From NCBI GenBank assembly GCA_016932355.1, contig JAFGDB010000030.1, positions 1 through 38,438 of the forward strand: 38,438 nt of DNA, written 5' to 3'. The position numbers and the translations under genes are program-made. Positions 573-37,237 of the stretch are shown here, one piece after another (positions within the stretch are counted from its first letter, which is position 1; every line of letters begins with the position of its first letter). This DNA comes from Candidatus Iainarchaeum sp. GTDB taxonomy: Archaea > Iainarchaeota > Iainarchaeia > Iainarchaeales > GCA-2688035. The notes below the pieces were generated by a model. The model saw nothing but the letters and a program-made list of their open reading frames with translations, ran no database searches and was not told where the DNA came from.

Positions 573-1019
573 TTACTTGAATATCTTTTTGAATGTTTCA
601 ATCAGCTTGTTGCCTGCTTCCCCAAGCCCTGCTTTTCTCTTGAACCTGTACTTGTCTGGAGCGTTTGCCTGCTGGCCTGCGAGGTCTGCTGCGTTTTCAA
701 TGCCCCGCCTGAGTATTGCAGGGTCAGGGTGGCTTCCCTCTGCCTTTCCCACATCTGCCTTGATTCCTGTTACAAGCACTTGGCCTGTTGCCTTTGCAAA
801 GCCCGCTGTCTTGTTTGCAGCCCTTGCAAGGAAGAGAAGCGCTGCCGCAATGAAGCAAATGCCTGAGGCCAGGGGCTGGTCAATGAGTATGAATAAAAGG
901 CATCCTGCAATCAGGATCGGGAAGAGCGCCCCTTCCAGCGTGCTTTTTTCCTCTGTCTCAGCTTTCTCTTTTGAGCCTTTTGTTTCAGGCTTTTCCACTT
1001 TTTTAACTTTTGGAATCAA
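573..1019 (-). CDS. Small membrane protein: K/E-rich N-tail, 2 predicted TM helices, about 75-aa soluble C-terminus
   Basis: TTG start preceded by AAGGGGA about 8 nt upstream (SD-like). Hydrophobic segments are LFPILIAGCLLFILI and ASGICFIAAALLFLA. It lies 27 nt downstream of the preceding minus-strand gene. The overlapping plus ORF 526..1362 is S/P/A-rich and shadow-like. Confidence 0.65.
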   Translation of the reverse strand: MIPKVKKVEKPETKGSKEKAETEEKSTLEGALFPILIAGCLLFILIDQPLASGICFIAAALLFLARAANKTAGFAKATGQVLVTGIKADVGKAEGSHPDPAILRRGIENAADLAGQQANAPDKYRFKRKAGLGEAGNKLIETFKKIFK

Positions 1020-1046
1020 TTCAATGTCCCCTTGCTCCTGCTTCCC

Positions 1047-1376
1047 TCAGAGTCCGCCTGGAAGGCCGCCAAAGCCGCCTGCGTCAAGGCCGCCTCCATA
1101 TAGGTCCATTGGCATTGCCTCTGGCTGGCTTCCGCCGCCCCTGCCAATTATCAGTGAAAGGATTATAAGCCCAAAGAGCACAAAGGGCCAGTATTCCTTG
1201 AGGTATTCCCTTGCAAGGAATAGCACTGCTGTTGAAACAAGCAGCAGCACTGTTGTTCCCAGTGACCTCATTGTGAGGATCATCAGGGCAACTATTGCAA
1301 AAACAAGCCAGTTCTGGTTGAATTGTATTGCAAGCATCATGAGCAGAACTGCAACCATGTAGGTGAATGTGTCCAT
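1047..1376 (-). CDS. Small polytopic membrane protein (about 4 TM) with Gly-rich C-terminal tail
   Basis: ATG start with AAGGGG about 8 nt upstream. There are four hydrophobic stretches, and the tail is GRGGGSQPEAMPMDLYGGGLDAGGFGGLPGGL. Confidence 0.7.
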   Translation of the reverse strand: MDTFTYMVAVLLMMLAIQFNQNWLVFAIVALMILTMRSLGTTVLLLVSTAVLFLAREYLKEYWPFVLFGLIILSLIIGRGGGSQPEAMPMDLYGGGLDAGGFGGLPGGL

Positions 1377-1488: not shown

Positions 1489-1749
1489 TCACTTTTTGAA
1501 TATGTCTGCCTTTTCAAAGAAGCCCTTGCCAAACGTGGCAAAAATGAATATTATTACAGGAATCCATACAAGCTCTGGGTGCTGGAAGAATGTAAGGTAT
1601 ACTACAATCACTGCAAACAGTATTGCAAGCTTTGCAGAGCCCATTGCCTTCTTTGCCCATCCAAATACCCATACAAGGTAGAACAGGGCAAGTACTGTCC
1701 AAAGGTCAGTGACCAAAGTTGCTTCATTCAATTGCAGCAGTGTCAGCAC
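1489..1749 (-). CDS. Small polytopic membrane protein (about 3 TM)
   Basis: GTG start preceded by GAGGGTGA 7 nt upstream (strong SD-like). Three hydrophobic segments are present (LWTVLALFYLVWVFGWA, LAILFAVIVVYLTFF, LVWIPVIIFIFATFG). Confidence 0.65.
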   Translation of the reverse strand: MLTLLQLNEATLVTDLWTVLALFYLVWVFGWAKKAMGSAKLAILFAVIVVYLTFFQHPELVWIPVIIFIFATFGKGFFEKADIFKK

Positions 1750-1855: not shown

Positions 1856-2194
1856 TCAGCCCTTCCTGAGGTTCATTCCAACGCCCCAGATTACTACTGA
1901 GGTTATTGCAAACGTCATTATGAAGTAAAAGAACACATACATTGATGCTGTGAAGTATGCCCATTTTATGACAAGGAAGTATATGAGGACGCCGCTTATT
2001 ATCAGTGAAAGAAGGCCGCCTCCCATATAGCCCCTCACTGTTGTAAAAATGAGGAATACTAGGATTATCCTGATGATTATGTCCGCTGCTGGAAAAACCA
2101 TCATTACAAGCGGGGGGATGAGCGCAAGCACTAAGAATGCGAGGAATATGAACAGAATCATGTTTCCCGCTTCATTGATTGAATGCACGGCCAT
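1856..2194 (-). CDS. Small polytopic membrane protein (about 4 TM)
   Basis: The ATG start shares one nucleotide with the stop of the upstream gene (TAATG on the minus strand at 2192..2196), implying translational coupling. The sequence is almost entirely hydrophobic helices. Confidence 0.7.
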   Translation of the reverse strand: MAVHSINEAGNMILFIFLAFLVLALIPPLVMMVFPAADIIIRIILVFLIFTTVRGYMGGGLLSLIISGVLIYFLVIKWAYFTASMYVFFYFIMTFAITSVVIWGVGMNLRKG

Positions 2195-2583
2195 TACCTC
2201 ATCATCCTCCTTGGGCCGCCCCTTGCCTGTGCCATCATTGCACCCCTTTTCTGCTTTAGGTCAATGCCGTGGCTGATTGGGGTTTGCTCCTGCGGGCCAC
2301 CCATTCCTCCCACGAAGAAGAAGTCAATGAGTATGCCTGAAACGCCGAACAGCAGCAGCATCATTAAAACGTAAACGCTGCCAAAAAACCAGAACGCGCC
2401 AAAAAGCACAAACCAGCTTATTCCCACAATCAGTATTATTGCAAGTGGCCCCTTGCCCAAATGCATTACTATAAAGCTGATGATTGTAAGCAGAACAAAT
2501 ATCTTTAGGACAAAAACCATGTCCCCAAAAAACTCCGTTATGGAGAACAGCACAAAAAGTGCCGGCAGCATTGCTTCAATCAT
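2194..2583 (-). CDS. Small polytopic membrane protein (about 4 TM) with basic C-terminal tail
   Basis: ATG start at 2581..2583, four hydrophobic segments, and a C-terminal tail GGPQEQTPISHGIDLKQKRGAMMAQARGGPRRMMR. An ATTTAAAT box lies about 30 nt upstream. Confidence 0.7.
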   Translation of the reverse strand: MIEAMLPALFVLFSITEFFGDMVFVLKIFVLLTIISFIVMHLGKGPLAIILIVGISWFVLFGAFWFFGSVYVLMMLLLFGVSGILIDFFFVGGMGGPQEQTPISHGIDLKQKRGAMMAQARGGPRRMMR

Positions 2584-2751: not shown

Positions 2752-2760
2752 TGAATTAAG

Positions 2761-2805: not shown

Positions 2806-5800
2806 TTAGCTGCCGTATCCAATGCAGCTTTGGCCTGCGGTCAGGCCCTGTTCAAGCTGTTCAATGCTTGTGTATGGCCCTGCTGTTTCATAGAGCTTTT
2901 GCGGGTTCCACCAGAATGCTGTCCTTGTGCCAGAATTTGTAACGCACACATGGCCTGTTTCCACCAGGTCAAACACGTCCTGCAGTGATTCAGCCTTGTT
3001 TACTGAATCCCTGCTGTTGTGCAGCATTCCTGTTATTCCTGAAAGCTCAACTGTTTTTGCTATGTTGCTGTTTGGCGTGATAAACATCATGCCTGCCGGC
3101 TCCAGTGATTTCATGCTGTATATGCCTGCTGTTGGCGTGAAGAAAACAGTTTTCAGGTATGCTGTTCCCTTATAGTCTGCCTTTGGCCAGTCAACTGCGT
3201 ATGCAAACTCCCAGTTCTGCAGCCTGTCAGTGCCTGTTGCCTCCCTGTCTGGCTTGAAGTCAAATGCCTCAAATGCGGGAATTCCTGTAAAGTCAAGGCA
3301 CTGCCCTGCTCCTGTCCAGAAACCGAGGGTTGTTCCAGCCTCCACAGGCGCCAAAGTTTCCTGCAGCTGGTAGAATGCGGAGAATGGCTCATCTGTCTGG
3401 CTTGCGGGCATTTTCAGTACAAGAGGCGTTGCATAATTTGGGCTGAAAACCAGCTTTTTTCCGCTGCTGCCTGTTTCTGTGAAGTCCATTAAAAAGCCCC
3501 TGCTTGAAGCGCTTGTGTTTATCTTCTTCAAATCTGTTACAATGTCTGTTTCCAGGCTGGCTGCTGTAGTGCTTCCGCTTATCCTCCCTGTATTAATGCT
3601 TTCTCCCGGGTAAAAGCTTATCAGTATGTCCTCTTTCCTGTTCTCAAAGTTCAGGCCATAGCCAATCCTGCCGTTGAAGCTTTCCTTTCCAATATTTCCA
3701 TTGAATGGCAGGCTGTAAAATATTGAGTCAGGGTATGGGTTTTCAGCAAGGTATAGGTCCACAACTGTTTCAGAGTCAGGCAGGTCTGCATAGAAGAAAC
3801 GCCAGTCCTCGTTGTGGAAGTTTATTGCAAGCGTTGCATCATAGAGCCCTGCTGAGGAAAGGGTGTTCTGCCCGGAATACCTTGTCCTGAACCTCAAGGA
3901 ATCTGTGTCCTCAAACAGGTTTGCAAGCCTTTCGCTTCCGCTAATGAACCATTCAGGCGGGTCATAGAATGCACTGGTTGTGTAGAATTCCGCAAAGTCG
4001 CTCTGGAAGTCATTGGTGTAGCCGTCCTTCATGAGGTATGCCTTGAAGTGCAGAATTTCCTGCAGTGAGTCAAGGTCTGGAATTTCCTCTGTCCATGCAA
4101 TGCTTTCAAGGTTTGCTTCAACGTAGTATAGGAGTGCAGGCTTGTTGTCGTAAAGGACTGTTGACCTTGGAAGCCAGCAGCTTGCAATGTCTATTGGGGC
4201 AAAGCCCTGCAGGCCAAGCTCGTCAAGCGTTTCATTGAATTCTGCGCCGAGCTCTTCAAGGTTCTCTATTGCGGGGTTTTGCGGGCAGGGCAATGGCATA
4301 TTTTCCCTTAGGAATTCGTCCAGGGCATGCAGCCTTTTGTTGACCATTATGCTGAACTGGGTTGCATCGCAGTAAACTGCCTCATCATTCATGTAATCGC
4401 ATTCATTTATCCCAATGCCTCCGTTTTCTGCCCAGCTCCAGTTGAGCTTTACTTTTGGCAGGGCATCGTGGCCTGTCCTGCCCACAAGCGTTCCCATAAG
4501 GCATGACTCTTCATCTGGCACTGGCGGTATTTCAAGCACAATTTCCTTTGTGTTGAATTTCAGGTGTATTTTCTGCGAGTATGTTTCTGCCCTAAGGTCT
4601 GGCACCTTAAAAGGGCCAAATCCTGAGTTTCCCCTGCTTATCGTTGTGGGGTTTGAATGGTAGTGCCTTGTGCTTGGAATTCTGACTGTTGCGTAAACAG
4701 GCTTTCCTGGCTCAATTGCAGTGTTTGTGAATTTAATGCCTGCCTCCTGCTTGTCATATGTTCCGAAGACCTGTGCATCCTCTGTTTCCCAGGCTGCTGA
4801 AATCCCCTGCTTGTCAACTGTCAGGGGCTGGCTGTCCTCCTTGAGGTTAATTGCATAATCCATTAGCGTGGCGGTAACCCTCTGGTCGCATGGGTCTTCC
4901 CCGAATATGCCGCCGAGCAGGCCGCCTGCAATTGCTCCCAATGCTGCATACGTTCCAAGAATTCCGAAGAACTTGCCTTTGCTAAAGCCTGCTGCCTGGC
5001 CTGTTGCAGCCATTGTGCTGCCCAAACTGCCCATTGATGTTTTTGCTGTTCCCAGGGATGTTCTTGCATCTGCAAGGCCGTTAACTGCAGTGCCTGCTGC
5101 TCCCTGGGCGTCTGTAATTTTTACTCCTGATGCCTCTGCTGCCTGGATTGCGGTTGCAACGCTTGTCTGTGCCTTTGTTATTGCGGCAGATGCTGAATCC
5201 ACCTGCGGGGCGCAGCTTTCACCCTCCGCTGAACAGCACCCGTGTGCAGCACCCAGCTCCAACTCTGATGATTCCAGGCTGCTTTGCACTGTTGCCAGGC
5301 CTGCTGCCATTCCCTGGTTTTCTGCAAGGCTTTCACCCCAGCCTGTGTAGCTTTCGCCCAGGTCAGATGCTGATGTGTCAACCTCGCCAATTGCATTGTC
5401 AATGTCCTTGGTTGAATTGTAAGGGCCTGTGCTTACTGCAGTGGTTTCATTTGGCGAGGCTGTGTTCCTGCCTGTTATTGCATGCCCAAGGCCTGAGGCA
5501 ATCCTGCCAACGCCCCTTCCAATGCTTGCTATTGCCCTTCCTATTTTTGTCCAGAAAGTGCCGTTTGCCGTTGCCTCTATGTTTCCCATTTCGGTGTTTG
5601 CTGCTGCAACTGCTGCCTGTACGCCTGCCCCACACCCCCCTATTGCATTGGAGGCAGTAAGTGCTGCTTTTGTGTCAACTGAGGCTGCTTTTATTGCAAC
5701 ATTCCTTGTCTGGTCTGCTGCGAGCTGTGCTGCATCACCTGCAGTGCTTGCGCCTTGGACAAGGCCGTTTGCCCTTTGCACGCTGTCTACTGCGCCAGTC

Positions 5801-8800
5801 ATGTCAGCTGCCCTTGCAGCATTTATTGCCTGGGTTGTTTGGCTTGCGTGCTCTATTGCTGTCTTTGCCCCCAATAGTGCGGCTATTGCTGCTCCCACGC
5901 CTGCGCCTGCCAGGTCAAACATGCCTTCTTCCTCTGCTGTGCCCCAGTCGCATGCTGATGCATCAACTGAAACTGTTTCAGACAATGCGCTGTTTGTTAG
6001 CTTTGCCTCGTCGCTTGCCCCAATTCCCTTGATGTTTATCTCGTACTTGTCAAGGCTGAAGTCATTGCCTGTTTCAGGGTGCATCAATATGTCAAGGGTT
6101 TGCACCTCCCTGAAGGATGTTCCTGGAACCTTTGCTTCAACGTTTATGCCGTACATTCCAGGAATGCTCTGCCTCCTTACAAGCACTTCCCTTTCAGGGC
6201 TGTCCTTGTTCAGGGTAAAGCTTAGCGGCGTTACTGTGATGCCACCCTCTGCCCCGCCAGAGCAGTTTGGGTTTTGCCTGCACAGTTCAACCATTACATC
6301 TGTTTTCCCACAGTCGCTTGCGTCAACTGTGAATGTTGCGTCCTCCTGGCCTGCGCTTAATTCAACTATGTTCTCTGCGCCAATGTATTTTATGCACTGT
6401 TGCAGGTTAATTATTTTGATGTCTGCGCTTATCTTGCTAGGGCTTGCGCCTACAAATGCCATTCCAGAGCCTGTTGCTATCTCGCCGTCTATTTCCACTG
6501 TGAATTTTGCTGTCTCGCCCAGATGGCCCTGCTTTGGCGTGAGTGTTAGCATTGCATAGTATGTTGAGTCTGCCTGGGCTGTTTTGAACAGCCTTGTCCA
6601 CATTCCAGGTCTTAAAACCTCGCTGTTGCTGCTGCCTGTTTCCGCCTCAATCAATGTGAGCTCAACTGTTCCAAGGGCGTCAGACTGCCATTCAAGCTTT
6701 GCCTGCAGGCTGTCAAGCTCTACAAAGCTGCTTCCTGAAACGCAGTTGTTCTGCACTTCAAATTCTGTTGTTGCCGTGTTTTCAACTGTTGACCCTTCCC
6801 AGTTCTGCTTTGTGATGATTAAGCACGGCGAGTTGTCAGGCAGCTCGCCAATTACTGCCTTGACCTGCAGCGGAACTATCATGTCCCATAAAATGCTTCT
6901 TTCCTGGTTTGTTGCTGTTACAAGGTAATGGCCGTTTACTGTCTGGTTTGTAAAAAGGATTTCCCTTGCGTTTGCGCTGAGCTTTGTCTTGAACATTTCC
7001 CTTGCAATTGCGTTGCCTGGCCTTATTCCAATTCCAATGTGCTGCCTTGAATAGTTCTCCATTGTTGCCTGGTCAAGCAGCCCCTTAAAAGTTCCTGCCA
7101 GTGAAATGTTTTTTATTTCAAGGCCGATTCCTGTAACGTTTTCCACTTCAACTGAAAATGTCTGCTCTTTTGTGCCGCGTGTGTCAAGCACTGAATTTAT
7201 TTTGTTGGGGCTGAACCTCAAAACATTGGTGTCAACAAATACTGTTACTGGCGCAGCGTAGTATTCCGGTTTTTCTGCCTCTATAAGTATTTCGGTGTTT
7301 GGCTCCAGTTCCCCCAAATCAAATGTTGCCCTTCCAGGGCAGCATGTCATTTTTGTGTAGAATTCTGTTGGCCTGTCTGGGTGCGTTATTGTTGCCCTTA
7401 CAAGCGCATCCCTTACCCCAAGCCTTTGGCTTCCAACCTGCTCATCAACTGTAACCTGCAGCTCGTTTGCTATGTATGCTGCTATCACTTCCGGCTGGAC
7501 AGAGATCTGCATCTCCCTTTCGCTTTTCACCCAGGCGGTTATTGTTTTTGTGAAAACAGTCCTTGCATCAGCTATTACCTTTATTTCAATTGAGGCATTT
7601 CCCTGCTTGCTTGGCGTGAACTCAATTTCGCTGCTAATGCTCTTGCCCTTTGTAAAGCTCCCCAAGTCAATTGCCTCAATTTCTTTTGTGGAAACGCTTT
7701 CTGCTGTTATTTCCTGGGCTGAGGCATTTGTTATCTTGTAGCTGGTTATGGTTGAGCCAACCACCGTTATGTATAATTCACTGCTGTCGTACTGCCTTTC
7801 GCTGTTGTTTAGTATGTCAAATGTAAGTGTGTGGCTTGAGCCTGCCCTCATCTCATAAGGCTCATATATGTATAGGCCCATGTCCCCATCAATTATGCTT
7901 TCCCCGCTGTAGCAGAAGTCCTCCTGGCATTCGGATTCTGCGCCCTCCAAAAACTGCAGGTCAAATGTTTTTGCATAGAGTTCCTGCTTTTCCGCTGTTG
8001 ATTCAGCTATTCCAAGCTGCGAATCATACGGCGCCCTGATATAATCTCCTGCCTCATCAACAGCCCACGCCCTGTAGTGCATTGGCAGCCTTGTGTAGGG
8101 TGCTATCTGGCTCTTTACCCTTATCTCAAACCCAAAATAATAATTTCCTGTTTCCAGGCCTGCCCATTCCACGCTTGCCCATTTTGCATCACCTGCTGTC
8201 AAATTCTCTGAATCAGTCTCATAGCCTAAAGGCGCAGTAAAAGATGTCCCTTTCTGCACTGCCCTTACATTGCCTGCAATAACATCCTTTATCACAAGCG
8301 CATCGTTTACAAGCAGCCTTTCATCTCCCACCCTGTAGTGGAAGCCGCCCTGGCCAAAATTGCCTGCTTCAGGAACGCTCAGCTTGAATTTAACCAAATA
8401 CCTGCTGCCTGCCCTCAGCACCTGCACCTGCTTTCCTGCCAGGTCATATAGGCCTTCAAACTGTATTTGGGGCTCGCCCATGATAAGCCTTGGCTCCATC
8501 ACTGCCCTGAATTCAATTGGCTGAGAGGGCCAGAGCTGCTTTGGCATTGTATGCACTGCCATGTAATTTTCATGCCTTACAACAGCGTAAACCCTCTTAT
8601 CTGCCTTGAGCTCGTACTGCCCTGTTCCCTGGGGCAATGGAATTTTTCCCAGGCTTTCGCCTCCCTCTCCAAAAAACTCTGCCTCTGCCTCGTTCACTGG
8701 CCGCTTGTCCTCATCAAGCGCTGTTACCCTCACAAGGCTTTTTCCAATGAACAGGTTTACTGTAAAGTATGTTGCCTCCCTTATGTCAATTTCCTTGCCC

Positions 8801-17877: not shown

Positions 17878-17886
17878 TTAGTGCTT

Positions 17887-27775: not shown

Positions 27776-27800
27776 GCAAGAAAAGAATAGGCTTTACGTT

Positions 27801-27808
27801 ATTTAAAT
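27801..27808 (-). promoter_or_regulatory. Candidate TATA-like box (ATTTAAAT) for the 573-aa gene
   Basis: It lies 26-33 nt upstream of the ATG at 27775 with no SD-like site between, which fits a leaderless transcript. Confidence 0.4.
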
Positions 27809-27909
27809 ATGTTTTGGAAACGAAATAGCGATTAATGGCAAAAGGCTTTATTGCAGGTTTTTTAAAAGAGCTTCAATCATTTCCCTGGTTTTCCCTCTGT
27901 CAAATTTTC

Positions 27910-28167
27910 CTATTTTTTGAGTGCTGCCTCTTCGTCCATTGTTGCTATAACGCTTGCCCTTGCATAGCTCTCCCTGTCAAGCTTTCCTTCAGCCAAATGC
28001 TTCTGGATTGGAATGCTCTGCCCTCCTGGGCTTGTGGTTATCGGGCAAAACCAGCAATCATGCCTTTTGTTGTGCTCGTTGTTTGAAACAACCAGGGCAG
28101 GCCTTATCTTGTAATCAATCCTGTTTGAGAAGGGGAACCTTGCAAGTATTATGTCGCCTTGCTCCAA
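27910..28167 (-). CDS. PemK/MazF-family type II toxin, apparently truncated by a frameshift (85 aa as read; about 106 aa if repaired, extending to 27848)
   Basis: TTG start with GAGGGG about 6 nt upstream. The N-terminal pattern GDIILARFPFSN...KIRPALVVSN is typical of MazF/PemK. The ORF stops at TAG right after an A6 run. The adjacent frame continues IGKFDRGKTREMIEALLKNLQ*, which matches the usual family C-terminus. Confidence 0.8.
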   Translation of the reverse strand: MEQGDIILARFPFSNRIDYKIRPALVVSNNEHNKRHDCWFCPITTSPGGQSIPIQKHLAEGKLDRESYARASVIATMDEEAALKK

Positions 28168-28178
28168 AAGAAACCCCT

Positions 28179-28388
28179 CTACAGATAGCCTTTCCAGTAG
28201 GCATTGTCTTCATCTTTCCAGGCCTTTGCAAGGGCCTTTTCAGACCATTTTGCGTAATTCTCCTTGGCCATCTTTTCGCGGAACATTTCCCTGATTAGCT
28301 CGCTCCTGCTTTTGTAAAGGCCTTTCCTGACCTGGGCATCTGCCCACTTTTCCATCTGCTGTGTTACATCTGCGCTGATGGTAGTCAT
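28179..28388 (-). CDS. Ribbon-helix-helix (CopG-like) antitoxin
   Basis: The 69-aa protein sits 11 nt upstream of the toxin on the same strand. It has an N-terminal beta-strand-like TISADV followed by two helices (QQMEKWADAQVRKG; SRSELIREMFREKM), as expected for the RHH fold. Confidence 0.75.
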   Translation of the reverse strand: MTTISADVTQQMEKWADAQVRKGLYKSRSELIREMFREKMAKENYAKWSEKALAKAWKDEDNAYWKGYL

Positions 28389-28395
28389 AAGAGAA

Positions 28396-28413
28396 TATAT
28401 AGCGGGCTATATA
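28396..28413. promoter_or_regulatory. Perfect 8-bp inverted repeat with 2-bp spacer (TATATAGC-GG-GCTATATA); candidate RHH operator
   Basis: It lies 8-25 nt upstream of the antitoxin ATG, immediately next to an AT-rich TATA-like box at 28414..28424. RHH antitoxins typically autoregulate through palindromic operators. Confidence 0.5.
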
Positions 28414-28424
28414 ATTTAAAAATA
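28414..28424 (-). promoter_or_regulatory. Candidate TATA-like box (minus strand ATTTTTAAATT) for the antitoxin-toxin operon
   Basis: It lies 26-36 nt upstream of the antitoxin ATG at 28388. Confidence 0.35.
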
Positions 28425-28447
28425 TGCCCCTGTACGCAAAGCTGCCT

Positions 28448-31400: not shown

Positions 31401-34400
31401 ATGCAGTCCTCTTCCCCAAATTTGTGGATTATGAATGCACCCATTGCGTCTGCTATTCCCTCTGCCATCTCCTTGTTGCTTGGCTCAAACTGGGTTGGCG
31501 CATATGCCTTTACTGTCTTTTCTGAGTCTGGGTTGCCCTCCTTTTCAAGCTCTATTAGGAGAAGGCCGCTTTTTGTGTCTCCCTTTAAAATTGCAAGCGC
31601 ATTGCTGTTTTCGCTTTTTGTTGATGTCCTGCCGTCTGTTTTTCCAAACAGTTCCTGTGCAAGCAGCTTTGGCAGCTCTCCAAGCTCTTGGCTGCTTCCC
31701 TGCACATATCCAGGCCACGCGCTTCCTGAAAGCCCATATCCCTCGTCAACAGGCAGGAAGTTAATAACATTTTGCACATAGTTCCAGCACTGGCCTGTGT
31801 CTGCCCTGTCCTGCTCAATGGTTATTGTCAGGGCAAAGTTCCTGCCTTCCTCTGAGATTATTTCACCATTTGAAACCTGCATTGCCCCGTTTATTTCAAC
31901 ATAGTATTTTCCGCATCCCTTGAATGGCTTTTCAAGGTAGATATTTCCAAATGTGAAGCCTGCACCGCTTATGTCCTCCAGGTCAATTGCGTTTTGCTTT
32001 ACGTCATAGCCCTTGAGCTCTGTCTTGCTGAATTCCCTCAGCTCCTTAATAAGTGTTTCATAGTCCATGAAGTCAAGCTGCAGGAAAACAGGCAGTATTT
32101 CCCTCTTTACATTCATTTCGTCAAAGCTGCAGTGCCTCCTCTCCCTTGCTGCGCACCCTCCAAACTCTGAGGCCTGGTATTTTGCCTTTGCTGCCTTGTC
32201 CTTTGCAAGCGTTACCATGTCATCTGCTTTCCTGACAATGTATTGCGCAAGCTGCTTTGCATCGCAGTATCCATCAGAGCAGTTGCTGCTCAGCAGCGGG
32301 AAGCTCACCCTTTTTGTGTCCTCGCTGTCGCAGACCTTTATGCTTACCTCTTCTGTTGCCTTTCCCTCTGCTGCTGCTACAAGCCTGCCGAGCTTTACTG
32401 TTACTGAAAGCTCATCTGATTCAATTATCTTGTTCTGGTTTACGAGAAGGGCCAGTGCCTTTATTTTTGCCGCCCTGTCCATTTCCTGGCTTCCAACCAT
32501 CCTTAGGCTGAATGTGCTTTCCTGGCTTGGCTGCAGCACGATGTTTGCCGGGAACAGCATGAATGCATTGCTTCCAACTGCGCCTGGCTTTGTTGTGCCT
32601 GTAACCCTCAAGGGTTCGCCGCACTCGTTCTTGAGCTTTACCTGCCTTTCAATTATTGCAGTTGCCTTCTGGCTTGAGAAAACCATGCTTTCAATTGCCT
32701 CTGCCTTCAGGCACTGCGTTCCTGTGTAATTTACTCCAACCTCTGTCCTGCCCAAATCAGGGTAATACCTTCCGTTTATCACGCCTCCAAAGTATACATA
32801 GCCCTGTGCTGGCTCTGTCAGGGCTTCTGACTTGCTTGTTTCAGCGTAAACATGCCTTGTTGGGCTCAGCGCCTGTCCTGGCATCAGGTTTATTGAGCTT
32901 ATTGCTGTGGGCTTTATCTGCGCGCTTATTCCATATCTCCTGTAAGCTGTGTCCTCTATTGCTGCCCTGAATGCTGTTATTGGCGCAAACCCAGTGTTCA
33001 TCAGCTGGATTGGGACCTGGCCATATGCCCTTTCCTCTGCCGCTGCCCTTGCAAGCCACATTGTCAGGGTTGGCGGATAGCTTAAATTGCTGCTGGGGTT
33101 CCAGAGCTCTACTGAAAGCTTTATTGTTTTGTTGAGCTGGTCTGATTCAAGCTCTATGCTGAAGTACCTTCTTTCCTGCATTGCGTAAAGCCTGTCAATT
33201 GTGTTGCTTGCAGTGATTTTCAGCTTTTCAGTTGATTCCTTTTCAATCCTCAATGGTTCAACTGCAACGCTTAAATTTGGGTCTTGCTCCTGGGGCTTTA
33301 CCTTTGCGTTGAGCAAAAGCGAAGCCTCACAGTTGTTTTCAACCTCAATTTCCTGGGTTGCGCTGCTTCCTGCTGTCCCAATAAGCCTGATGACAACCTC
33401 CTCTGTGTCAAATTCCAGGCAGTCTGAGTCAAGCTGCTTGTTGTAGTTTGCCACAAGCCTTGCCGTTGTTTTTGTGGGAAAGCTTCCTGCAGCCATGCCC
33501 TTTATTACAAGGTCTGCCTCGCCGTGAAGGCTTTCCTGGCTTTCATCCGTTGTGCTGACTGAAACAGTTATGTTTGCGCTTCCGCTTCCCTTTCCTGCAA
33601 TTGTGCTCGGCATTTCAACTTTTACAGAGAATTCCTCTGGAAATCCTGAATCCTTCTCAAGCTCGTATGCAAGCCCTGTTATTTCCTGTTCCCCTGTATT
33701 GGTTATTGCTGCTGCCGCGCTTTTGTACTTCTCACCTTTCCCTATGTTAATCTCTATCGGGCTTTCAACTGTGAGAATGCCGTCCTTTGCAATTGTTATT
33801 TCAAGTTCCCCTGTTTTGTAGCCTGGGGCGCTTGCCTCTGCTGTGTAAAGCCCTGGCTCCAGGCTGTTTTTGAAAAGGTATTCGCCGTTCAGGCCCCTTC
33901 TGCTTGCGCCATTGCCTACAACAGTTAACGCGATTTTCCCGCTGCTGTCCTTAAGGCGGATTGTTGCGTTCTCTATATCCTGGCCGTCCTCACTGTCCAT
34001 AACGCTTATTGTAAAGTCCTCTCCAATGCCTATTTCCTCTGGCTTAACTCTCACAAGCATTGTCTTGTTTCGCTCTATCTGGAAGCTTGCTTCCTCATTG
34101 AGGACAATTGCGCCTGAAACAGCCTGCACCTTGATTGATGCTGTTCCCTCTTCAAACGGCTTAAAGTATGCCCTTACCTTCCTGGCCTCTGTTCCAACAG
34201 AAAGGCTGCTTATTGTAATGCCTGTCTGCTGGCCTGATTCAATGAATTCCAGTGGGTTTTCGCTTTCCTGCTGTGCTAATGTAGTTTCTCCAAGTTCGAG
34301 GAAGCCCTGCCCTGAAAGGTCTGTCTGCGCTGGAAGCTGCTCATCTAATATTGGTTCCCCGAGAAAGTCGTCAACCTCATAGCCTGTGAAGTAAATTAGG

Positions 34401-36910
34401 GGGTTTGCTTTGTCAGTGTCTATTTTCAGCGTTGCTGTCCTTTCGGCATCGGCACTGAGCTCTATCTGCAGCGCATAGAGCTCTTCGGTTACCGCCCTAA
34501 ACTCTGCCTTTTCAACGAACAGCCCATTGGGCATTACAAACAGGTAGTTTGCGCAGAGCCCTTCCTCACAGACTGCCTCGCTTGAAAAAACGCTGATTTC
34601 CTCATCATGGGTTTCAGAGTAAAGCCCTGTTTTTGAGGAAACATACCTCTCGTTTCCAAGCTCTGGGTCTGCTGGATGCCTGTAATATTGCTGTGCAATC
34701 TGGCTCCATGCCCTGTAGTGCAGCTCAATGCTTTCCTCAGTTATTGAGTTTCTTGCCTGCACCTTTACGCTCACAACAGTTGTGTTCTCCGGGCTTTCAA
34801 AGTATAGCTCAAGCAGCTTGTTGAGCTGGCCTGTGCTTCCCTTGTTGAGCATGTCTGCTGCCTCATTTCCAGGCAGCGGGAATGGCTGGTAGCTTTTCCC
34901 ATAAAAGTATTTTCCAGTAACTGCATCAAAGCCTGCAATTCCTGCCTGCTGCGAGTCTACAAAGGCTGTGTCATCGCTCCCAAGCCTTACATGGATGCCG
35001 CCTTTTTCAAGCCCTTCAGGCCAGTTTACCTCAAACTTGAGCCAGTAATACTTTCCAGGGGTTATGCCTTCAACCTCAACCCAGTCATCGTTGTATGCCC
35101 CTAAAAAATTTATTTCGGGGGCGAGTGCGTCAACCTCTTCCCCAAGCGTTACCCTTACAGTGTCCTGGCCCTCCACGTTCACCTGCTGGCTGAATGTTTT
35201 GCCCTCGCTTGTTTCAACCCAGAGGTTTACCTCTTTGTTGCCCCTTGAGTCAAAGTAAATGCTGCCATTGCTTATGTTTCCGTCAAAGAGAAGCGCGCCG
35301 CTTGCGCTTTCAATTTCTGCTGTTCCTGTTACAGGGTTTCCCTCGCTGTCAAATATCTGAAGCTCAACAATGTTCACAGGCTTTTCCATCACTATTATGA
35401 GCTGGTTTTCCTTGTTTGCCTCAATCAGCTTTTCTGCCTTGCCCTCCTGCAGGTCCTTTTTTGCCTCAACAACCACTGTTGAGCTGATTGCAGCCTTTAT
35501 TGAGGCATACCCGCTTATGTCTGTTTTAAGCGATGGAATTCCAAGAGGGAGCTCTTTTCCTTCAACCTTTTCAGAGAAGTAGAGGTCTGCGTTGTTTGCT
35601 GCAGCATTGTATGAGTCAAAAACGCTTATTCCAAGGTATGAGCTGTTTGTCTGGTCTGTTGCAGTAAGCCTTATGTCAACGCTCTCTGTTTCAGCAATGT
35701 TCACGAGTTCCCTTGCCGGCAGGTATCCTGCCCTGTAGCCTGTAACATAATACTTTTCTGGTGCAAGGTTTTCAAACAGCGCCATGCCCGCAAACGCTGT
35801 TTCTGTCGCCTCAAGGAAGTTGCCGTTGCTGTCAAAAAGCTGCACTGCTGCATCGCTCAATGGAACATCCGCTGAGTAAACCGTTACCTCAAGCTGGTTT
35901 CCGCCAACTTCCAAATTTACAATCCACTGCTCTTCATCAAGCCTGAGTGTCCTGCTTTCAGCCCTTTCCAGGCTGTCATACCTTAAAAAGCCGTCTTTCT
36001 GCACAATCAGCCTTACACTTGTTCCCTTTGTTATGCTGAACACTGCCTCGCTTCCCTCAAGCACCCTTTCCTCAAGCAAAGTGTCTGTTGTCCTGTCCAT
36101 TGCAATTGCTTTTGCGCCCTCAACTGCCTCGCCAAACTCGTCCTCTATTGAAACAATGAGTGCTGTTTCGCCTGCAAGCGAAATGCTGTCTGGTTCCAAT
36201 TCAATTTCTGCAAGCTCGCCCTCTTTAAAGCTCTTTGCCAGCGTAACCCTTTCATAGCCGTCAGCGCTCACTGAAACAGTTACATCAATGCCCTCTGGAA
36301 TGCCTGTAAAGCTTGCCTTGCCCTCGCTGTTTGTGATTGCGCTCATTGTAATGTCCTGCCATTCAATGCCGACAAGCGCTTCCTTTACTGCATCTCCAGT
36401 AATGCTGTCCACAAGCTGCAGCTCTGCCTGGATCTGCCTGATCTGCCTCTGCATCTGCATCAGGAGCGAGGTTTCATCCCTTGCCACAGTTACTGCCTTT
36501 TCCGAAATGTCAAAGCCCTGCTTTGAGGCTGAAACCACAAGCTCTGCCCCGATCGGTATAGCCTGCAAGTGTATGGTTTCGCCGCTTGCAACTGTTTTCG
36601 GGCCTGTTATCACCTGCCCTGACTGGTTTTTCACTGTTACCTGCACGCCTGAGACAGTCTGGCCAAACTGGTCCTGGAAGCTTACAGTAATGCCAGGGTT
36701 TATTGTGTTTCCGATGAAGACAAGCCCAAACACAAGGGCCAGGACAAGCACAATCAGTGCAACTGTTATTGGGAATGCAGGCAGGCCCTTTTCCTCAAGA
36801 AAGTCGTTGTAGCTGTAAACAGGAATGCCTTTTGCATCCAGGAAGTCGAGCAGTGCATAGTATTTCTCTTCAAGCGCAGTGTATATCCCTGACAGCTTTT
36901 CCCCAAACAT
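28448..36910 (-). CDS. Giant signal-anchored surface protein, paralog 4 (about 2820 aa) with a divergent helical C-terminal module
   Basis: Uninterrupted ORF. The track starts at TTG 36916 (MKMFGEK...), but the first ATG at 36910 (MFGEKLSGIYTALEEKYYALLDFLDAKG...LPAF plus TM) is the more likely start. It has a CarboxypepD_reg-like repeat stalk, a central module ending HYRAWS and LYSET, and a GYCDAKQLAQYIV motif. The C-terminal about 900 aa are unlike paralogs 1-3. Confidence 0.95.
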   Translation of the reverse strand: MFGEKLSGIYTALEEKYYALLDFLDAKGIPVYSYNDFLEEKGLPAFPITVALIVLVLALVFGLVFIGNTINPGITVSFQDQFGQTVSGVQVTVKNQSGQVITGPKTVASGETIHLQAIPIGAELVVSASKQGFDISEKAVTVARDETSLLMQMQRQIRQIQAELQLVDSITGDAVKEALVGIEWQDITMSAITNSEGKASFTGIPEGIDVTVSVSADGYERVTLAKSFKEGELAEIELEPDSISLAGETALIVSIEDEFGEAVEGAKAIAMDRTTDTLLEERVLEGSEAVFSITKGTSVRLIVQKDGFLRYDSLERAESRTLRLDEEQWIVNLEVGGNQLEVTVYSADVPLSDAAVQLFDSNGNFLEATETAFAGMALFENLAPEKYYVTGYRAGYLPARELVNIAETESVDIRLTATDQTNSSYLGISVFDSYNAAANNADLYFSEKVEGKELPLGIPSLKTDISGYASIKAAISSTVVVEAKKDLQEGKAEKLIEANKENQLIIVMEKPVNIVELQIFDSEGNPVTGTAEIESASGALLFDGNISNGSIYFDSRGNKEVNLWVETSEGKTFSQQVNVEGQDTVRVTLGEEVDALAPEINFLGAYNDDWVEVEGITPGKYYWLKFEVNWPEGLEKGGIHVRLGSDDTAFVDSQQAGIAGFDAVTGKYFYGKSYQPFPLPGNEAADMLNKGSTGQLNKLLELYFESPENTTVVSVKVQARNSITEESIELHYRAWSQIAQQYYRHPADPELGNERYVSSKTGLYSETHDEEISVFSSEAVCEEGLCANYLFVMPNGLFVEKAEFRAVTEELYALQIELSADAERTATLKIDTDKANPLIYFTGYEVDDFLGEPILDEQLPAQTDLSGQGFLELGETTLAQQESENPLEFIESGQQTGITISSLSVGTEARKVRAYFKPFEEGTASIKVQAVSGAIVLNEEASFQIERNKTMLVRVKPEEIGIGEDFTISVMDSEDGQDIENATIRLKDSSGKIALTVVGNGASRRGLNGEYLFKNSLEPGLYTAEASAPGYKTGELEITIAKDGILTVESPIEINIGKGEKYKSAAAAITNTGEQEITGLAYELEKDSGFPEEFSVKVEMPSTIAGKGSGSANITVSVSTTDESQESLHGEADLVIKGMAAGSFPTKTTARLVANYNKQLDSDCLEFDTEEVVIRLIGTAGSSATQEIEVENNCEASLLLNAKVKPQEQDPNLSVAVEPLRIEKESTEKLKITASNTIDRLYAMQERRYFSIELESDQLNKTIKLSVELWNPSSNLSYPPTLTMWLARAAAEERAYGQVPIQLMNTGFAPITAFRAAIEDTAYRRYGISAQIKPTAISSINLMPGQALSPTRHVYAETSKSEALTEPAQGYVYFGGVINGRYYPDLGRTEVGVNYTGTQCLKAEAIESMVFSSQKATAIIERQVKLKNECGEPLRVTGTTKPGAVGSNAFMLFPANIVLQPSQESTFSLRMVGSQEMDRAAKIKALALLVNQNKIIESDELSVTVKLGRLVAAAEGKATEEVSIKVCDSEDTKRVSFPLLSSNCSDGYCDAKQLAQYIVRKADDMVTLAKDKAAKAKYQASEFGGCAARERRHCSFDEMNVKREILPVFLQLDFMDYETLIKELREFSKTELKGYDVKQNAIDLEDISGAGFTFGNIYLEKPFKGCGKYYVEINGAMQVSNGEIISEEGRNFALTITIEQDRADTGQCWNYVQNVINFLPVDEGYGLSGSAWPGYVQGSSQELGELPKLLAQELFGKTDGRTSTKSENSNALAILKGDTKSGLLLIELEKEGNPDSEKTVKAYAPTQFEPSNKEMAEGIADAMGAFIIHKFGEEDCISEDGQYIVMKSGQNFRKLYPTFQVKGDESIRINNQVNCAEFSVESDAKESVQVSTSFLAKQERAGIESVAIYKKADYEKKGIDAEPLLKEENRTAGQKGEKSKKVSLKELKPEPAQPGSAEPSQPASTEEAGSTEGSTQNKLYGEEFVMCVKGSNEFALAPASVKSIELTAYGSIYDGRKTEKAHAIAIEVCGIHPLELVKKITEREKAMEKGKEEIYYAMPGWQGSPDTLSFPKLERLYALQREIEEMGPAAVGEPVSGLSSYEKEARPDRIASLGLYMGACAPIAFFSPWGSVAFDCVLPAMPAILDLTETTKAAKEFAINAVKTALGPVGKAIGIVLNGVSKVFGGQDIVDLDAGETPGEYISEDEANSQFGTLLKGAATFSGTKAVIEGLSATSKTLTLSSARTLVNSGLWDEYAKQFITKKMAGLPKTVADDLQKKLVEKAKDAAAENLFVKGPPGVRPSSWHLTTLQPSLKGKPLKDVANAVIDKAFADMQDEFNKQLGEGIATGTIAKGSLLDNAIRNRTNTIFDARKIGDEAFASMQMDSLGTLSGKEVQESVSRKIISSFDSLDRDMMDSIWDEFGGRSNFEDAIKKSVTKTGYTKPAAQKAMMDIYNDAITKLSGTTGIPKNALRKFSINDLVDKMAEAEKARFLGQMQSSVEDLVRNSMADFAADAANNKAVYKALQKRVNAEVVTKLQGKFGSDASKIMKEYVESPKFSKKLANFGKGLAKGVLSGLVANAAGMALYLAYWEGIGPDAVQEQARFTTSMMTDVVDEQGNVIAQKPVVKELELVKNQPHKVTISKDSLGRTSVNIMALGEGRYGEMAKAFESSKESNWNTDCKNYGKEDAGFLGKLKPYPNDKVSQEQAILYNENQMVIRYFADYYRAEKEGIAIDEEMLMAVLLYEPENIKGCGIEKEWWKQKNSEKEVNAIIGCAAQRLRNSLEKGENYLTSFTSTKSPSTYLSKIREIRSAWMQFREEE

Positions 36911-37237
36911 TTTCAAAGACCACTTTTCAAGGCTTTCTTTTTCGGCTTTTTTTTTATTCCTGATTTATTCTTTCTTTCCCAAGGCTTTCCTTTGGTCAAA
37001 GAAAGGCTTTTCACTTTATTACTCTGCCTAATTAATTTCTATGGCATCTTCTATATTAACCTTTATATCAAGGCATTTTTTTCCCTTCTGGAAAAACCAC
37101 AATAAAAAAAGGGCAAACTAATATATTAAAGTAATTATTGCAGCGCCCCAGCTTCAAACAGGTATTTTTGGGTTTCTATTTCATTGATAGAAACGATTAT
37201 TAAGAACTTTAATTATGTTTATAGCGGTGAATCTTCT

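What the first reader, a model, noticed from the sequence alone, without database searches (positions are those of the whole stretch)
573..36916. Whole co-directional block as a candidate cell-surface or host-contact apparatus
Apart from the toxin-antitoxin pair, every protein in this 36-kb minus-strand block is predicted to be membrane-embedded or extracytoplasmic. That covers four giant signal-anchored proteins, one Cys-rich protein with a pilin-like N-terminus, and five small polytopic membrane proteins. No cytoplasmic enzyme, ATPase or regulator is present. The flanking genes on both sides are on the opposite strand and look like housekeeping genes (PAC2-like chaperone, coiled-coil protein). 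The arrangement suggests a dedicated surface-structure locus in which the small membrane proteins could act as insertion, anchoring or partner subunits for the giants. This is a hypothesis; nothing in the sequence proves a functional link.
Basis: inference. Interest (0 to 1): 0.8.

Follow-up and report, generated by a model that had tools for sequence, protein, structure and literature searches.

The report
Conserved giant surface-protein cluster of Iainarchaeota
This 36-kb block is a gene cluster conserved in the tiny-celled archaeal phylum Iainarchaeota (DPANN), encoding four ~280-kDa membrane-anchored surface proteins, one pilin-like protein and five small membrane proteins, none with a known relative, and it most likely builds a major cell-surface structure.

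Summary
The minus strand carries four paralogous giants (2401-2822 aa, one N-terminal membrane anchor each), a 573-aa Cys-rich protein with a type IV pilin-like N-terminus, and five small membrane proteins. A MazF/RHH toxin-antitoxin pair sits between two of them.

In all 35 species-level genomes recovered with one small protein as bait, mostly Iainarchaeota (DPANN) MAGs, the small proteins lie in the same order. A G1-type giant lies directly upstream wherever the contig reaches that far. Four divergent contigs show giant - pilin-like protein - giant, and one contig reproduces the whole order.

The four giants are ancient paralogs kept in fixed positions. The toxin-antitoxin pair and PAC2 are not part of the conserved set. 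The 'flanking' coiled-coil gene is.

No component matches a known secretion, pilus, transporter or S-layer family. The pilin-like protein gives a confident model (pLDDT 92) with no fold match.

I read the block as a core envelope assembly: a canopy or S-layer-like structure of four colossal Ig-rich proteins on a small-protein membrane base. A role in host contact is possible but untested.

One caveat applies. PolB and a methionine aminopeptidase stay syntenic too, so gene order alone does not prove a functional link.

The parts
28448..36916 (-). Giant G4 (2822 aa; likely true start is the ATG at 36910). N-terminal anchor module, CarboxypepD_reg/SpaA-type beta-sandwich domains in the first ~1050 aa, and a distal ~1750 aa with no family match. 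A hydrophobic Gly-rich segment lies at aa 2569-2591.
   Evidence: G4-type orthologs always lie upstream of the pilin-like gene.
26054..27775 (-). P573: a Cys-rich extracytoplasmic protein with a type IV pilin-like (class III) N-terminus. The window has RA|FNLFTALVS; the family consensus is KG|FNLFTALVS. The model has a 75-residue N-terminal helix followed by a globular part of unknown fold.
   Evidence: 82 homologs; those that carry an organism name are DPANN MAGs. Invariant F8, L10, F11, T12, A13 and several conserved Cys. AF2 pLDDT 92.3, pTM 0.86. No PDB or viral fold match. No PDB sequence match.
17887..25851 (-). Giant G3 (2654 aa). N-terminal anchor, at least four CarboxypepD_reg stretches plus Big_1/Ig-like hits in the first ~1000 aa, and a distal part with no family match.
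   Evidence: G3-type orthologs always lie directly downstream of the pilin-like gene.
10390..17595 (-). Giant G2 (2401 aa). N-terminal anchor, CarboxypepD_reg/Big_1/bMG3-type domains, a Gly-rich hydrophobic segment at aa 1549-1572, and a C-terminal ~420 aa shared with G1.
   Evidence: G2-type fragments precede the G1-type gene in nearly all related loci where a fragment is visible (L027 scores as G1-type).
2806..10293 (-). Giant G1 (2495 aa). N-terminal anchor, a beta-sandwich stalk, and a conserved Cys-containing beta-rich C-terminal ~700 aa.
   Evidence: A complete G1-type gene (2209-2665 aa) ends just upstream of the first small protein in the 21 genome loci with enough upstream DNA.
4894..5931 (-). 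G1 residues ~1455-1800: an Ala/Gly/Ser/Thr-rich, indel-rich hypervariable insert. It is bracketed by two glycine-zipper hydrophobic segments (LAGAGVGAAIAALLGA and FFGILGTYAALGAIAGGLLGGIFG).
   Evidence: sequence; top-residue frequency 0.20-0.26 and 40-53% gaps at aa 1501-1800, against 0.40-0.58 elsewhere. Gly-zipper Pfam hits occur in 3 of 20 orthologs.
10099..10293 (-). N-terminal anchor module of G1: a ~40-aa conserved cytoplasmic leader (LEDKWY..LD......P....VD.I.K.VPSF) plus a TM helix. The same module is found at 17386-17595 (G2), 25612-25851 (G3) and 36683-36916 (G4).
   Evidence: Alignment. A profile search found 1043 representative proteins, always at residues 1-~115 (nearly all at 1-90); the longest hits listed are 2300-3200 aa.
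2194..2583 (-). S129: a small ~4-TM protein with a basic C-terminal tail. D21 and D87 are invariant; E17, K27 and H41 are nearly invariant.
   Evidence: 122 homologs, alignment. Median identity to the 35 genome loci is 51%. No Pfam, NCBIfam or PDB match.
1856..2194 (-). S112: a small 4-TM protein whose start overlaps the S129 stop. It is a distant paralog of S129.
   Evidence: Present after S129 in 35 of 35 loci. hhalign probability 97.6% against S129.
1489..1749 (-). S86: a small ~3-TM protein and the best-conserved member (median 53% identity).
1047..1376 (-). S109: a small ~4-TM protein with a Gly-rich C-terminal tail.
573..1019 (-). S148: a 2-TM hairpin plus an ~80-aa soluble C-terminal domain. 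In more distant genomes a ~114-aa protein of the same architecture occupies this position.
21..560 (+). cc179: a cytoplasmic protein with a small N-terminal domain, an acidic linker and a C-terminal coiled coil. It converges on the block and is co-conserved with it. It is a possible member but this is unproven.
   Evidence: Homolog detected in 31 of 35 genome loci, and in the other four the contig ends too soon. It lies on the opposite strand except in L036 and L037, and is co-directional with the small genes in L037.

Best explanation
The block is the core of a lineage-specific cell-envelope assembly of Iainarchaeota (DPANN archaea).

How I think it works (inferred):
- The four giants are inserted as N-in signal-anchor proteins. 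A conserved ~40-residue leader stays in the cytoplasm.
- About 1000-1400 residues of divergent transthyretin/Ig-like beta-sandwich domains form a stalk tens of nanometres long.
- The paralog-specific, Cys-containing distal ~1000-1500 residues associate with one another into a heteromeric canopy, that is, an S-layer-like lattice or head complex.
- The pilin-like P573 is cut by a prepilin peptidase encoded elsewhere. Its long hydrophobic helix sits in the membrane next to the giants' anchors.
- The five small proteins (about 17 TM helices) form the membrane platform that gathers and holds these five single-pass anchors.

Shown: predicted topologies, paralogy, positional orthology, synteny, and absence of known-family membership.
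Inferred: physical association, stoichiometry, the canopy architecture and the platform role.
For: 1. Topology and composition fit exported, disulfide-bonded glycoproteins: one N-terminal TM each, 22-28 Cys and 15-23 sequons. Beta-sandwich domains fill the membrane-proximal third.

2. The four paralogs diverged before the sampled species did, and each keeps its position G4-P573-G3-G2-G1. This is expected for non-redundant subunits of one assembly.

3. The order is conserved.
- The order giant-S129-S112-S86-S109-(S148-like) holds in the 35 genome loci wherever the contigs extend. L036 carries an inversion.
- One contig (L001+L005) reproduces the entire order.

4. Genes are tightly packed, with an overlapping S129 stop and S112 start.

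5. G1 orthologs are evenly conserved over the whole ectodomain except one hypervariable insert. There are no recent internal repeats. This resembles lattice proteins and differs from repeat adhesins.

6. The small TM proteins are the most conserved members, at a median 49-53% identity against 33% for G1. They carry invariant acidic residues.

7. The N-terminal anchor module occurs at the start of every listed hit, and the longest hits are giant-sized.

8. A precedent exists: a single 292-kDa, 19-Ig-domain, Cys-containing S-layer protein rising 37 nm in Pyrobaculum (bioRxiv 10.64898/2026.08.21.746120).

9. The block lies among housekeeping genes at uniform GC.
Against: - There is no expression, abundance or imaging evidence.
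- No sequence or fold similarity to any S-layer protein was found.
- The anchor is N-terminal, whereas the colossal SLPs use a C-terminal TM.
- Downstream housekeeping genes (PolB, M24 peptidase) are syntenic as well, in 23 and 12 of the 35 loci. The small proteins could be neighbours by descent only.
- Four different giants in one lattice has no precedent.
- I could not check whether these genomes also encode a conventional S-layer protein.
Confidence: 0.45

Rival explanations
1. Host-contact apparatus. The giants are long tethers or adhesins that bind a partner cell. The glycine-zipper segments and the hypervariable insert of G1/G2/G4 engage or insert into the partner's envelope. The small proteins anchor the base.
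For: - The organism is a DPANN archaeon. From my own knowledge, most cultured DPANN are ectosymbionts.
- The proteins are very long and N-anchored.
- G1 has a hypervariable exposed insert flanked by glycine zippers.
- The G1 C-terminal model gives weak adhesin-like fold hints: CLIPPER domain probability 0.87, Flo5 and Esp at E>0.05.
- One distant G3-type ortholog carries a CAP domain.
Against: - Conservation is even along the ectodomain and the tip is no more variable than the stalk.
- There are no recent repeats.
- The set is a fixed four-paralog set in a housekeeping neighbourhood, not a variable island.
- From my own knowledge, Iainarchaeota have been proposed to be at least partly free-living.
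- No lectin, protease or lytic domain was detected.
Confidence: 0.25
2. Only the giants and P573 form a unit. The five small membrane proteins, and cc179, are unrelated housekeeping membrane proteins that remain adjacent through inherited gene order.
For: - PolB, an M24 peptidase and two further unknown genes keep their order downstream in 12-33 of the 35 loci.
- Local synteny in this lineage is therefore generally conservative.
- No direct evidence links the small proteins to the giants.
Against: - The small genes are co-directional with the giants and separated by short gaps, and no locus shows them without a giant upstream where enough DNA is visible.
- The upstream boundary of the block varies (PAC2, EpsH-like or other genes) while the giant-to-small-protein junction does not.
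- The small proteins were found only in DPANN MAGs, the same taxon range as the giants.
- In the rearranged locus L036, S129-S112 stayed with G1.
Confidence: 0.15
3. A novel export or pilus-like machine. P573 is a (pseudo)pilin, the small proteins form a membrane channel or platform, and the giants are its cargo or tip proteins. It might be powered by the HerA-like ~500-aa protein encoded two genes beyond the window edge in relatives.
For: - P573 has a class III-like signal and a 75-residue N-terminal helix.
- The small TM proteins are highly conserved and carry invariant acidic residues.
- A conserved ~500-aa neighbour gives its three best PDB profile hits to HerA-family proteins, at E 0.03-0.1.
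Against: - There is no PilB/FlaI-type ATPase, PilC/FlaJ platform or prepilin peptidase in the window or in 10-kb flanks of relatives.
- The HerA-like matches are not significant and by eye I see no canonical Walker A motif in the alignment.
- P573 is ten-fold larger than typical pilins and matches no pilin fold.
- The giants carry ordinary signal-anchor TMs, which the Sec pathway could handle.
Confidence: 0.1

Closest known systems
Colossal Ig-rich S-layer proteins of Thermoproteota (PySLP of Pyrobaculum arsenaticum; bioRxiv 10.64898/2026.08.21.746120)
   Same: - About 290 kDa.
- Single-pass membrane anchor.
- A stalk of many divergent Ig-like domains, with the Cys residues confined to the non-stalk (lattice-forming) part.
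- Exposed parts more variable than contact parts.
   Different: - The anchor is N-terminal with a conserved cytoplasmic leader, not a C-terminal TM plus basic tail.
- There are four paralogs rather than one protein.
- No detectable sequence or fold similarity.
- The cluster also includes a pilin-like protein and five small membrane proteins.
SlaA/SlaB-type multi-component S-layers of Sulfolobales, and tetrabrachion of Staphylothermus
   Same: A canopy is held far above the membrane by a membrane-anchored stalk, and several gene products build one layer (as summarised).
   Different: - No coiled-coil stalk.
- No homology.
- Much larger subunits.
- Extra small polytopic membrane proteins.
Archaeal type IV pilin-like surface proteins (class III signal peptides, for example the Sulfolobus bindosome substrates; own knowledge)
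   Same: P573 has a short basic leader, [KR][GA]|F, and then a long hydrophobic helix. It is a large non-filament-like globular protein that uses a pilin-type anchor.
   Different: - No assembly ATPase or platform protein nearby.
- The +2 residue is Asn.
- The fold of the globular part is unknown.
Giant repeat adhesins (RTX/Bap/SiiE type) and the SPEARE giants of Nanohaloarchaeota (own knowledge)
   Same: Very long surface proteins rich in beta-sandwich domains, in SPEARE's case in a DPANN organism.
   Different: - No near-identical tandem repeats.
- No T1SS.
- No protease or nuclease domains.
- Fixed four-paralog set with even conservation.
Exosortase/archaeosortase sorting systems
   Same: A small exosortase/archaeosortase-family gene heads the cluster in 4 of the 7 loci where the region upstream of G4 is visible, the window included. 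It passes TIGR04178 at 34-47 bits against a cut-off of 23.
   Different: - It is absent from this window.
- No giant or P573 ortholog inspected has the C-terminal motif-TM-basic signal these enzymes recognise.
- It matches no defined subfamily.

Membership tests
Type IV pilin-like (class III signal peptide) proteins, tested on P573 | Short basic leader, then Gly/Ala at -1, then a ~20-residue hydrophobic helix | tested here: met
   The window has MHLNQRA|FNLFTALVSFLLIILAVLL. In 47 homologs the consensus is KG|FNLFTALVS, with F8, L10, F11, T12 and A13 invariant.
Type IV pilin-like (class III signal peptide) proteins, tested on P573 | Recognised by a curated pilin model or a pilin fold | tested here: not met
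   The only hit is a sub-threshold ComGF N-terminal match (E=0.037, 14 bits against a cut-off of 80). Foldseek gives no pilin match (best E=0.48). The model does have a 75-residue N-terminal helix.
Type IV pilus / archaellum-type assembly systems | Adjacent PilB/FlaI ATPase, PilC/FlaJ platform protein and prepilin peptidase | tested here: not met
   None is present in the window or in the 10-kb flanks of related loci.
Archaeal S-layer proteins | Match to a known S-layer domain or a solved SLP | tested here: not met
   No S-layer Pfam family appears among the hits. There is no PDB sequence or fold match.
Archaeal S-layer proteins | Tandem Ig-like domains plus a membrane anchor that raises a lattice-forming region | tested here: inconclusive
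   Ig/transthyretin-like domains and a TM anchor are present. The anchor is N-terminal, and lattice formation cannot be judged from sequence.
Archaeal S-layer proteins | Very high abundance and a 2-D lattice on cells | not testable with these tools
   This needs proteomics or cryo-ET of an Iainarchaeota enrichment.
Repeat adhesins (RTX/Bap type) | Many near-identical tandem repeats and a dedicated T1SS | tested here: not met
   TRF finds only two trivial 2-copy arrays. Protein self-comparison finds almost no internal repeats. There is no ABC, MFP or TolC gene.
Alpha-2-macroglobulin family | MG domains above threshold plus a CxEQ thioester | tested here: not met
   bMG3 reaches threshold only in G2 (36.3 bits against 34.9) and MG4 only in G3 (28.3 against 24.7); neither gives a stretch that passes on its own, and both are below threshold in the other giants. 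No CxEQ motif occurs in any giant.
Exosortase/archaeosortase substrate system | A sortase gene in the locus and a C-terminal motif-TM-basic signal on the substrates | tested here: not met
   There is no homolog in the window (tblastn). The window's giants have no C-terminal TM, and the ortholog C-terminal tails printed show none by eye. The sortase is present in relatives L001, L002, L003 and L048.
Known transporter, secretion or insertase subunits, tested on the five small proteins | Match to any curated membrane-protein family | tested here: not met
   There are no Pfam or NCBIfam hits above threshold. For S129, all 34 family members were scanned and the best hit is DUF6720 in 3 members. The PDB profile search gives only SecG at E=3.7.
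Type II toxin-antitoxin (MazEF-like), tested on 27910-28388 | A PemK/MazF toxin next to a small DNA-binding antitoxin | tested here: met
   PemK_toxin E=5e-12, 46 bits against a cut-off of 23. RHH_1 is weak at E=0.003. The genes lie 11 bp apart with the antitoxin first.

The most novel reading that the evidence does not exclude
The cluster encodes a previously undescribed kind of archaeal cell-surface machine. A membrane base is built from three mutually paralogous small TM proteins plus two others, with invariant acidic residues. This base holds, and possibly energises, four colossal arms. Glycine-zipper hairpins and hypervariable inserts on those arms enter a partner cell's membrane, giving DPANN cells their intercellular bridge. 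The neighbouring coiled-coil and HerA-like proteins would form the cytoplasmic part.
Probability: 0.12. Interest if true: 0.9.

Novelty: new variant of a known kind. Interest (0 to 1): 0.62.

Why it matters
DPANN archaea have genomes of about 1 Mb (own knowledge). This one locus would therefore take roughly 3% of the coding capacity, yet it consists entirely of proteins with no known relative.

If it builds the envelope, it defines how a whole phylum constructs its surface. It would also extend the newly recognised 'colossal' Ig-rich surface-layer principle to a heteromeric, N-anchored form.

If it mediates host contact, it is a candidate for the long-sought attachment or bridging apparatus of an uncultured DPANN lineage.

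Either way it offers concrete targets:
- four positional ortholog families of giants;
- a confidently modelled new fold (P573);
- a diagnostic N-terminal anchor module;
- five small membrane-protein families.

These can be used in metaproteomics, cryo-ET labelling and complex prediction.

Tried and rejected
- Pfam and NCBIfam scans of all proteins, of 500-aa tiles of the distal halves of G2-G4, and of 20 G1 orthologs. Only generic beta-sandwich families were found in the proximal part.
- PDB sequence searches with G1, the G1-ortholog profile, the P573 profile and the S129 profile. Nothing was found.
- Structure prediction plus Foldseek for P573 against PDB and viral libraries, and for the G1 C-terminus against PDB. 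There were no significant matches.
- Alpha-2-macroglobulin idea. Rejected because no thioester motif is present.
- Archaeosortase-substrate idea. Rejected for this window because there is no sortase gene and no C-terminal signal.
- Split-archaeosortase idea for S129+S112. Not supported: neither protein gives an Exosortase_EpsH or other Pfam/NCBIfam hit, and tblastn with an EpsH-like protein finds nothing in the window.
- Mobile-element or virus origin. Rejected because GC is uniform, the window has no tRNA gene and no integrase or other mobile-element domain among the proteins scanned, and the block is conserved in a housekeeping context.
- HerA-like ATPase as the motor. The conserved ~500-aa neighbour in relatives gives only non-significant HerA hits, and by eye I see no canonical Walker A motif in the alignment.
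- Literature. Eight searches and five papers gave no description of this cluster. The 101-kDa Micrarchaeota S-layer protein (PF05123) is a different protein.
Full report
**1. What is in the window**

Bases 573-36916 of the minus strand carry twelve real ORFs in one direction.
- Four giants: G4 28448-36916, G3 17887-25851, G2 10390-17595 and G1 2806-10293, of 2401-2822 aa.
- A 573-aa protein, P573, at 26054-27775.
- A two-gene toxin-antitoxin pair at 27910-28388.
- Five small hydrophobic proteins: S129 2194-2583, S112 1856-2194, S86 1489-1749, S109 1047-1376 and S148 573-1019.

A 63-aa ORF at 17745-17936 has no counterpart elsewhere and is probably spurious.

Hydropathy gives each giant one strong N-terminal TM at about residues 30-79. 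P573 has one at residues 5-36. The small proteins have 2-4 each.

The giants are paralogs. They share 24-32% identity over 600-1500 residues, and G1 and G2 also share a ~420-aa C-terminal region.

Pfam finds CarboxypepD_reg, SpaA, Big_1, SdrD_B and macroglobulin-like beta-sandwich domains only in the first ~1000 residues. The distal 1400-1800 residues match nothing, even when tiled or scanned across 20 orthologs.

PemK/MazF (E=5e-12) plus a weak RHH match form the toxin-antitoxin pair. PAC2 (E=3e-46) lies on the other strand upstream. GC is uniform, and the window has no tRNA and no Rfam match.

**2. Where it comes from**

P573 has 82 homologs and S129 has 122. Those that carry an organism name come from 'Diapherotrites', 'Iainarchaeum', 'Micrarchaeota' or unclassified archaeon MAGs.

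A scan of one genome per GTDB species, using the S129 alignment, returned 35 loci. They are mostly Candidatus Iainarchaeum MAGs and include Ca. Iainarchaeum andersonii SCGC AAA011-E11.

The closest is a Ca. Iainarchaeum MAG (isolate Meg22_1416_Bin_183), with 83% identity for S129. The window is therefore from an Iainarchaeota (DPANN) archaeon.

**3.

Small proteins and giants:
- All 35 genome loci have S129 followed by S112.
- S86 and S109 follow wherever the contig continues. The one exception is L036, where an inversion moved them.
- A fifth protein follows in most loci. It has S148 architecture: a 2-TM hairpin plus a soluble tail.
- In the 21 loci with at least ~8 kb of upstream DNA, a complete 2209-2665-aa giant ends just before S129.
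- In shorter loci, a truncated giant or tblastn hits appear at the contig edge. The exceptions are L021, which has only 213 bp of upstream DNA, and L037, where an MNT-HTH gene lies upstream.

Giants and P573:
- Look-ups seeded with P573 homologs of 30-57% identity show giant - P573 homolog - giant (- giant).
- So do two more distant homologs, at 35-41% identity over about half the length.
- One 86-kb contig (L001+L005) reproduces the whole order: EpsH-like - 2876 - 575 - 2728 - 2428 - 2509 - 138 - 130 - 81 - 108 - 123 aa, then an opposite-strand 167-aa gene.

Best-match scoring shows positional orthology:
- the giant before P573 is always G4-type;
- the one after it is always G3-type;
- the one before S129 is always G1-type;
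- the one preceding that is G2-type in nearly every locus where a fragment is visible (in L027 it scores as G1-type).

What is not conserved:
- The toxin-antitoxin pair, PAC2 and the 63-aa ORF have no counterpart in any related locus.
- In relatives the G4-P573 gap is 22-147 bp. Here it is 672 bp, so the toxin-antitoxin pair is an insertion.

**4. A caveat on synteny**

The conserved order does not stop at the block. Of the 35 genome loci, 31 carry a homolog of cc179 (window 21-560), and it lies on the opposite strand in all but L036 and L037.

Beyond it come an unknown ~500-aa protein, a ~155-aa coiled-coil protein, PolB and an M24 peptidase. These are present in 33, 28, 23 and 12 loci respectively.

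Gene order in this chromosome region is therefore generally conservative. Synteny alone cannot prove a functional link.

Four points still favour a link between giants and small proteins:
- They are co-directional and tightly spaced, and the S129 stop overlaps the S112 start.
- The junction between them is invariant while the upstream boundary varies (PAC2, EpsH-like or other genes).
- The taxon range is the same.
- S129-S112 stayed next to G1 in the inverted locus L036.

cc179 may belong to the unit. In L037 it is co-directional with the small genes and is followed by the ~500-aa gene.

**5. The components**

*(a) Anchor module.* The first ~40 residues of all four giants share a motif (LEDKWY..LD......P....VD.I.K.VPSF) directly before the TM.
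- A profile of residues 1-87 searched against 1.84 billion representative proteins found 1043 hits at E<=1e-3 and 473 at E<=1e-10.
- The match always lies at the very N-terminus (residues 1-~115, nearly all 1-90). The longest hits listed are 2300-3200 aa; the many shorter ones are probably fragments from short contigs.
- Among the 150 hits listed, the module always opens the protein, so it looks diagnostic of this giant family.

*(b) Ectodomains.* Across 22 G1-type sequences (G1 and 21 orthologs) conservation is flat, with a top-residue frequency of 0.40-0.58.
- The exception is residues ~1500-1800, at 0.20-0.26 with 40-53% gaps.
- That insert is Ala/Gly/Ser/Thr-rich and is bracketed by two glycine-zipper hydrophobic segments.
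- G2 and G4 have similar segments. G3 does not.
- There are no recent internal repeats at the DNA or protein level.
- The G1 C-terminal 696 aa models as beta-rich domains (pLDDT 75). The only fold hints are weak and adhesin-like or sandwich-like.

*(c) P573.* The family consensus N-terminus is KG|FNLFTALVS, with invariant F8, L10, F11, T12 and A13. This is a class III, type IV pilin-like signal.
- The model is confident (pLDDT 92.3, pTM 0.86). It has a 75-residue N-terminal helix and a globular Cys-rich body.
- It has no PDB or viral fold match (best E=0.48 and 0.17) and no PDB sequence match.

*(d) Small proteins.* These are the best-conserved members, with median identity to the 35 loci of 53% (S86), 51% (S129) and 49% (S112). 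G1 is at 33%.
- S129 has invariant D21 and D87, and nearly invariant E17, K27 and H41.
- S129, S112 and probably S86 are distant paralogs, with hhalign probabilities of 97.6% and 91%. Scores for TM proteins can be inflated.
- None matches any Pfam, NCBIfam or PDB entry.

**6. Interpretation**

All members except cc179 are membrane or extracytoplasmic proteins. The four giants are ancient, non-redundant and retained one of each. That is what subunits of a single hetero-oligomeric structure look like.

Several features resemble structural surface-layer proteins more than fast-evolving adhesins:
- even conservation with one exposed hypervariable insert;
- divergent, non-repetitive Ig-like domains;
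- conserved Cys pairs;
- a housekeeping chromosomal setting.

The recently described Pyrobaculum 'colossal' S-layer protein is the nearest precedent. It is 292 kDa, has 19 Ig-like domains, rises 37 nm above the membrane and carries its Cys residues in the lattice-forming part.

This cluster differs from it in several ways: N-terminal anchoring, four paralogs, no detectable homology, and the extra pilin-like and small membrane proteins.

My preferred model (confidence 0.45) is an envelope canopy on a small-protein membrane platform. The rivals are:
- small proteins unrelated to the giants, at 0.15;
- a novel export or pilus-like machine, at 0.10.

**7. Known or new**

Eight full-text searches and five papers produced no description of this cluster.
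- Surveys of archaeal 'dark matter' and of uncharacterised membrane proteins list other DPANN families and a different putative secretion system.
- The Micrarchaeota S-layer protein is an unrelated 101-kDa protein.

I rate this a new variant of a known kind, namely archaeal giant Ig-rich surface proteins. There is a modest chance that the whole assembly is a new kind of machine.

Noticed in passing
window 27910-28388; also L002 788-1939, L007 2145-2682, L037 53-673, L047 20763-21191: The MazF/RHH pair is an insertion between G4 and P573. Relatives carry other small insertions at different intergenic positions of the same cluster: HEPN + nucleotidyltransferase (L002), an MNT-HTH gene (L037), a PIN gene (L047), and two unannotated small reverse-strand genes (L007). 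The long intergenic gaps seem to attract such modules.
   Followed up: partly
L001 428-1099, L002 213-782, L003 278-826, L048 312-857: A small (181-223 aa) exosortase/archaeosortase-family gene heads the cluster in 4 of the 7 loci where the region upstream of G4 is visible, the window included. By eye its Cys, Arg and His motifs (ELCTG, N..RI, HN.LFR) look intact. It passes the TIGR04178 signature but fits no named subfamily. No giant or P573 inspected has the expected C-terminal sorting signal, so its substrate is unknown. It is absent from this window.
   Followed up: partly
L010 12846-14372 and 14655-15128, and equivalents in 28-33 loci; just beyond window position 1: Beyond cc179, relatives always encode an unknown ~500-aa protein and a ~155-aa coiled-coil protein, followed by PolB and an M24 peptidase. 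The three best PDB profile hits of the ~500-aa protein are HerA-family proteins (E 0.03-0.1, not significant), and by eye I see no canonical Walker A motif in its alignment.
   Followed up: partly
L047 11557-20697; L009 12224-14590: A distant G3-type giant (3046 aa) in a MAG labelled Micrarchaeota carries a CAP (PF00188) domain. One genome has a 788-aa Peptidase_M64-like gene (E=8.5e-6, just below threshold) inserted after the small proteins.
   Followed up: no
L002 2084-9979, C-terminal ~120 aa: By eye, the C-terminus of this G4-type ortholog resembles lytic-transglycosylase motifs (..WQESKCNPNEADGGLCQLT.. and ..FNRGQG..). The window's G4 does not conserve them, and no Pfam hit is on record.
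   Followed up: no
L012, L015, L019: Three contigs with the typical Iainarchaeota cluster sit in MAGs labelled Chloroflexi bacterium, Thaumarchaeota archaeon and Falkowbacteria bacterium. These are probably binning contamination or mislabelling in public genomes.
   Followed up: no
window 5429-6559 (+), 29601-30611 (+), 8467-9147 (+) and others: Long antisense ORFs (up to 376 aa) lie inside the giants. They go with a strong strand composition bias, with plus-strand AT skew of -0.2 to -0.36 across the block. They are most likely artefacts of the A-rich coding strand, not genes.
   Followed up: partly
window 36910-36916 and 573-1019: Start-codon details. Orthologs begin at the position of the ATG at 36910, so the TTG at 36916 is probably not the G4 start. 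S148 starts at a TTG with a Lys/Glu-rich 30-aa leader that is not conserved in orthologs, so its true start is uncertain.
   Followed up: partly
window intergenic regions 27776-27909, 25852-26053, 28389-28447: AT-rich (33-37% GC) spacers with TATA-like boxes (ATTTAAATA, TTTTTAAATTATATA) lie about 25-35 nt upstream of several start codons. This suggests several promoters and short or absent leaders rather than one long operon. No archaeal promoter tool was available.
   Followed up: no
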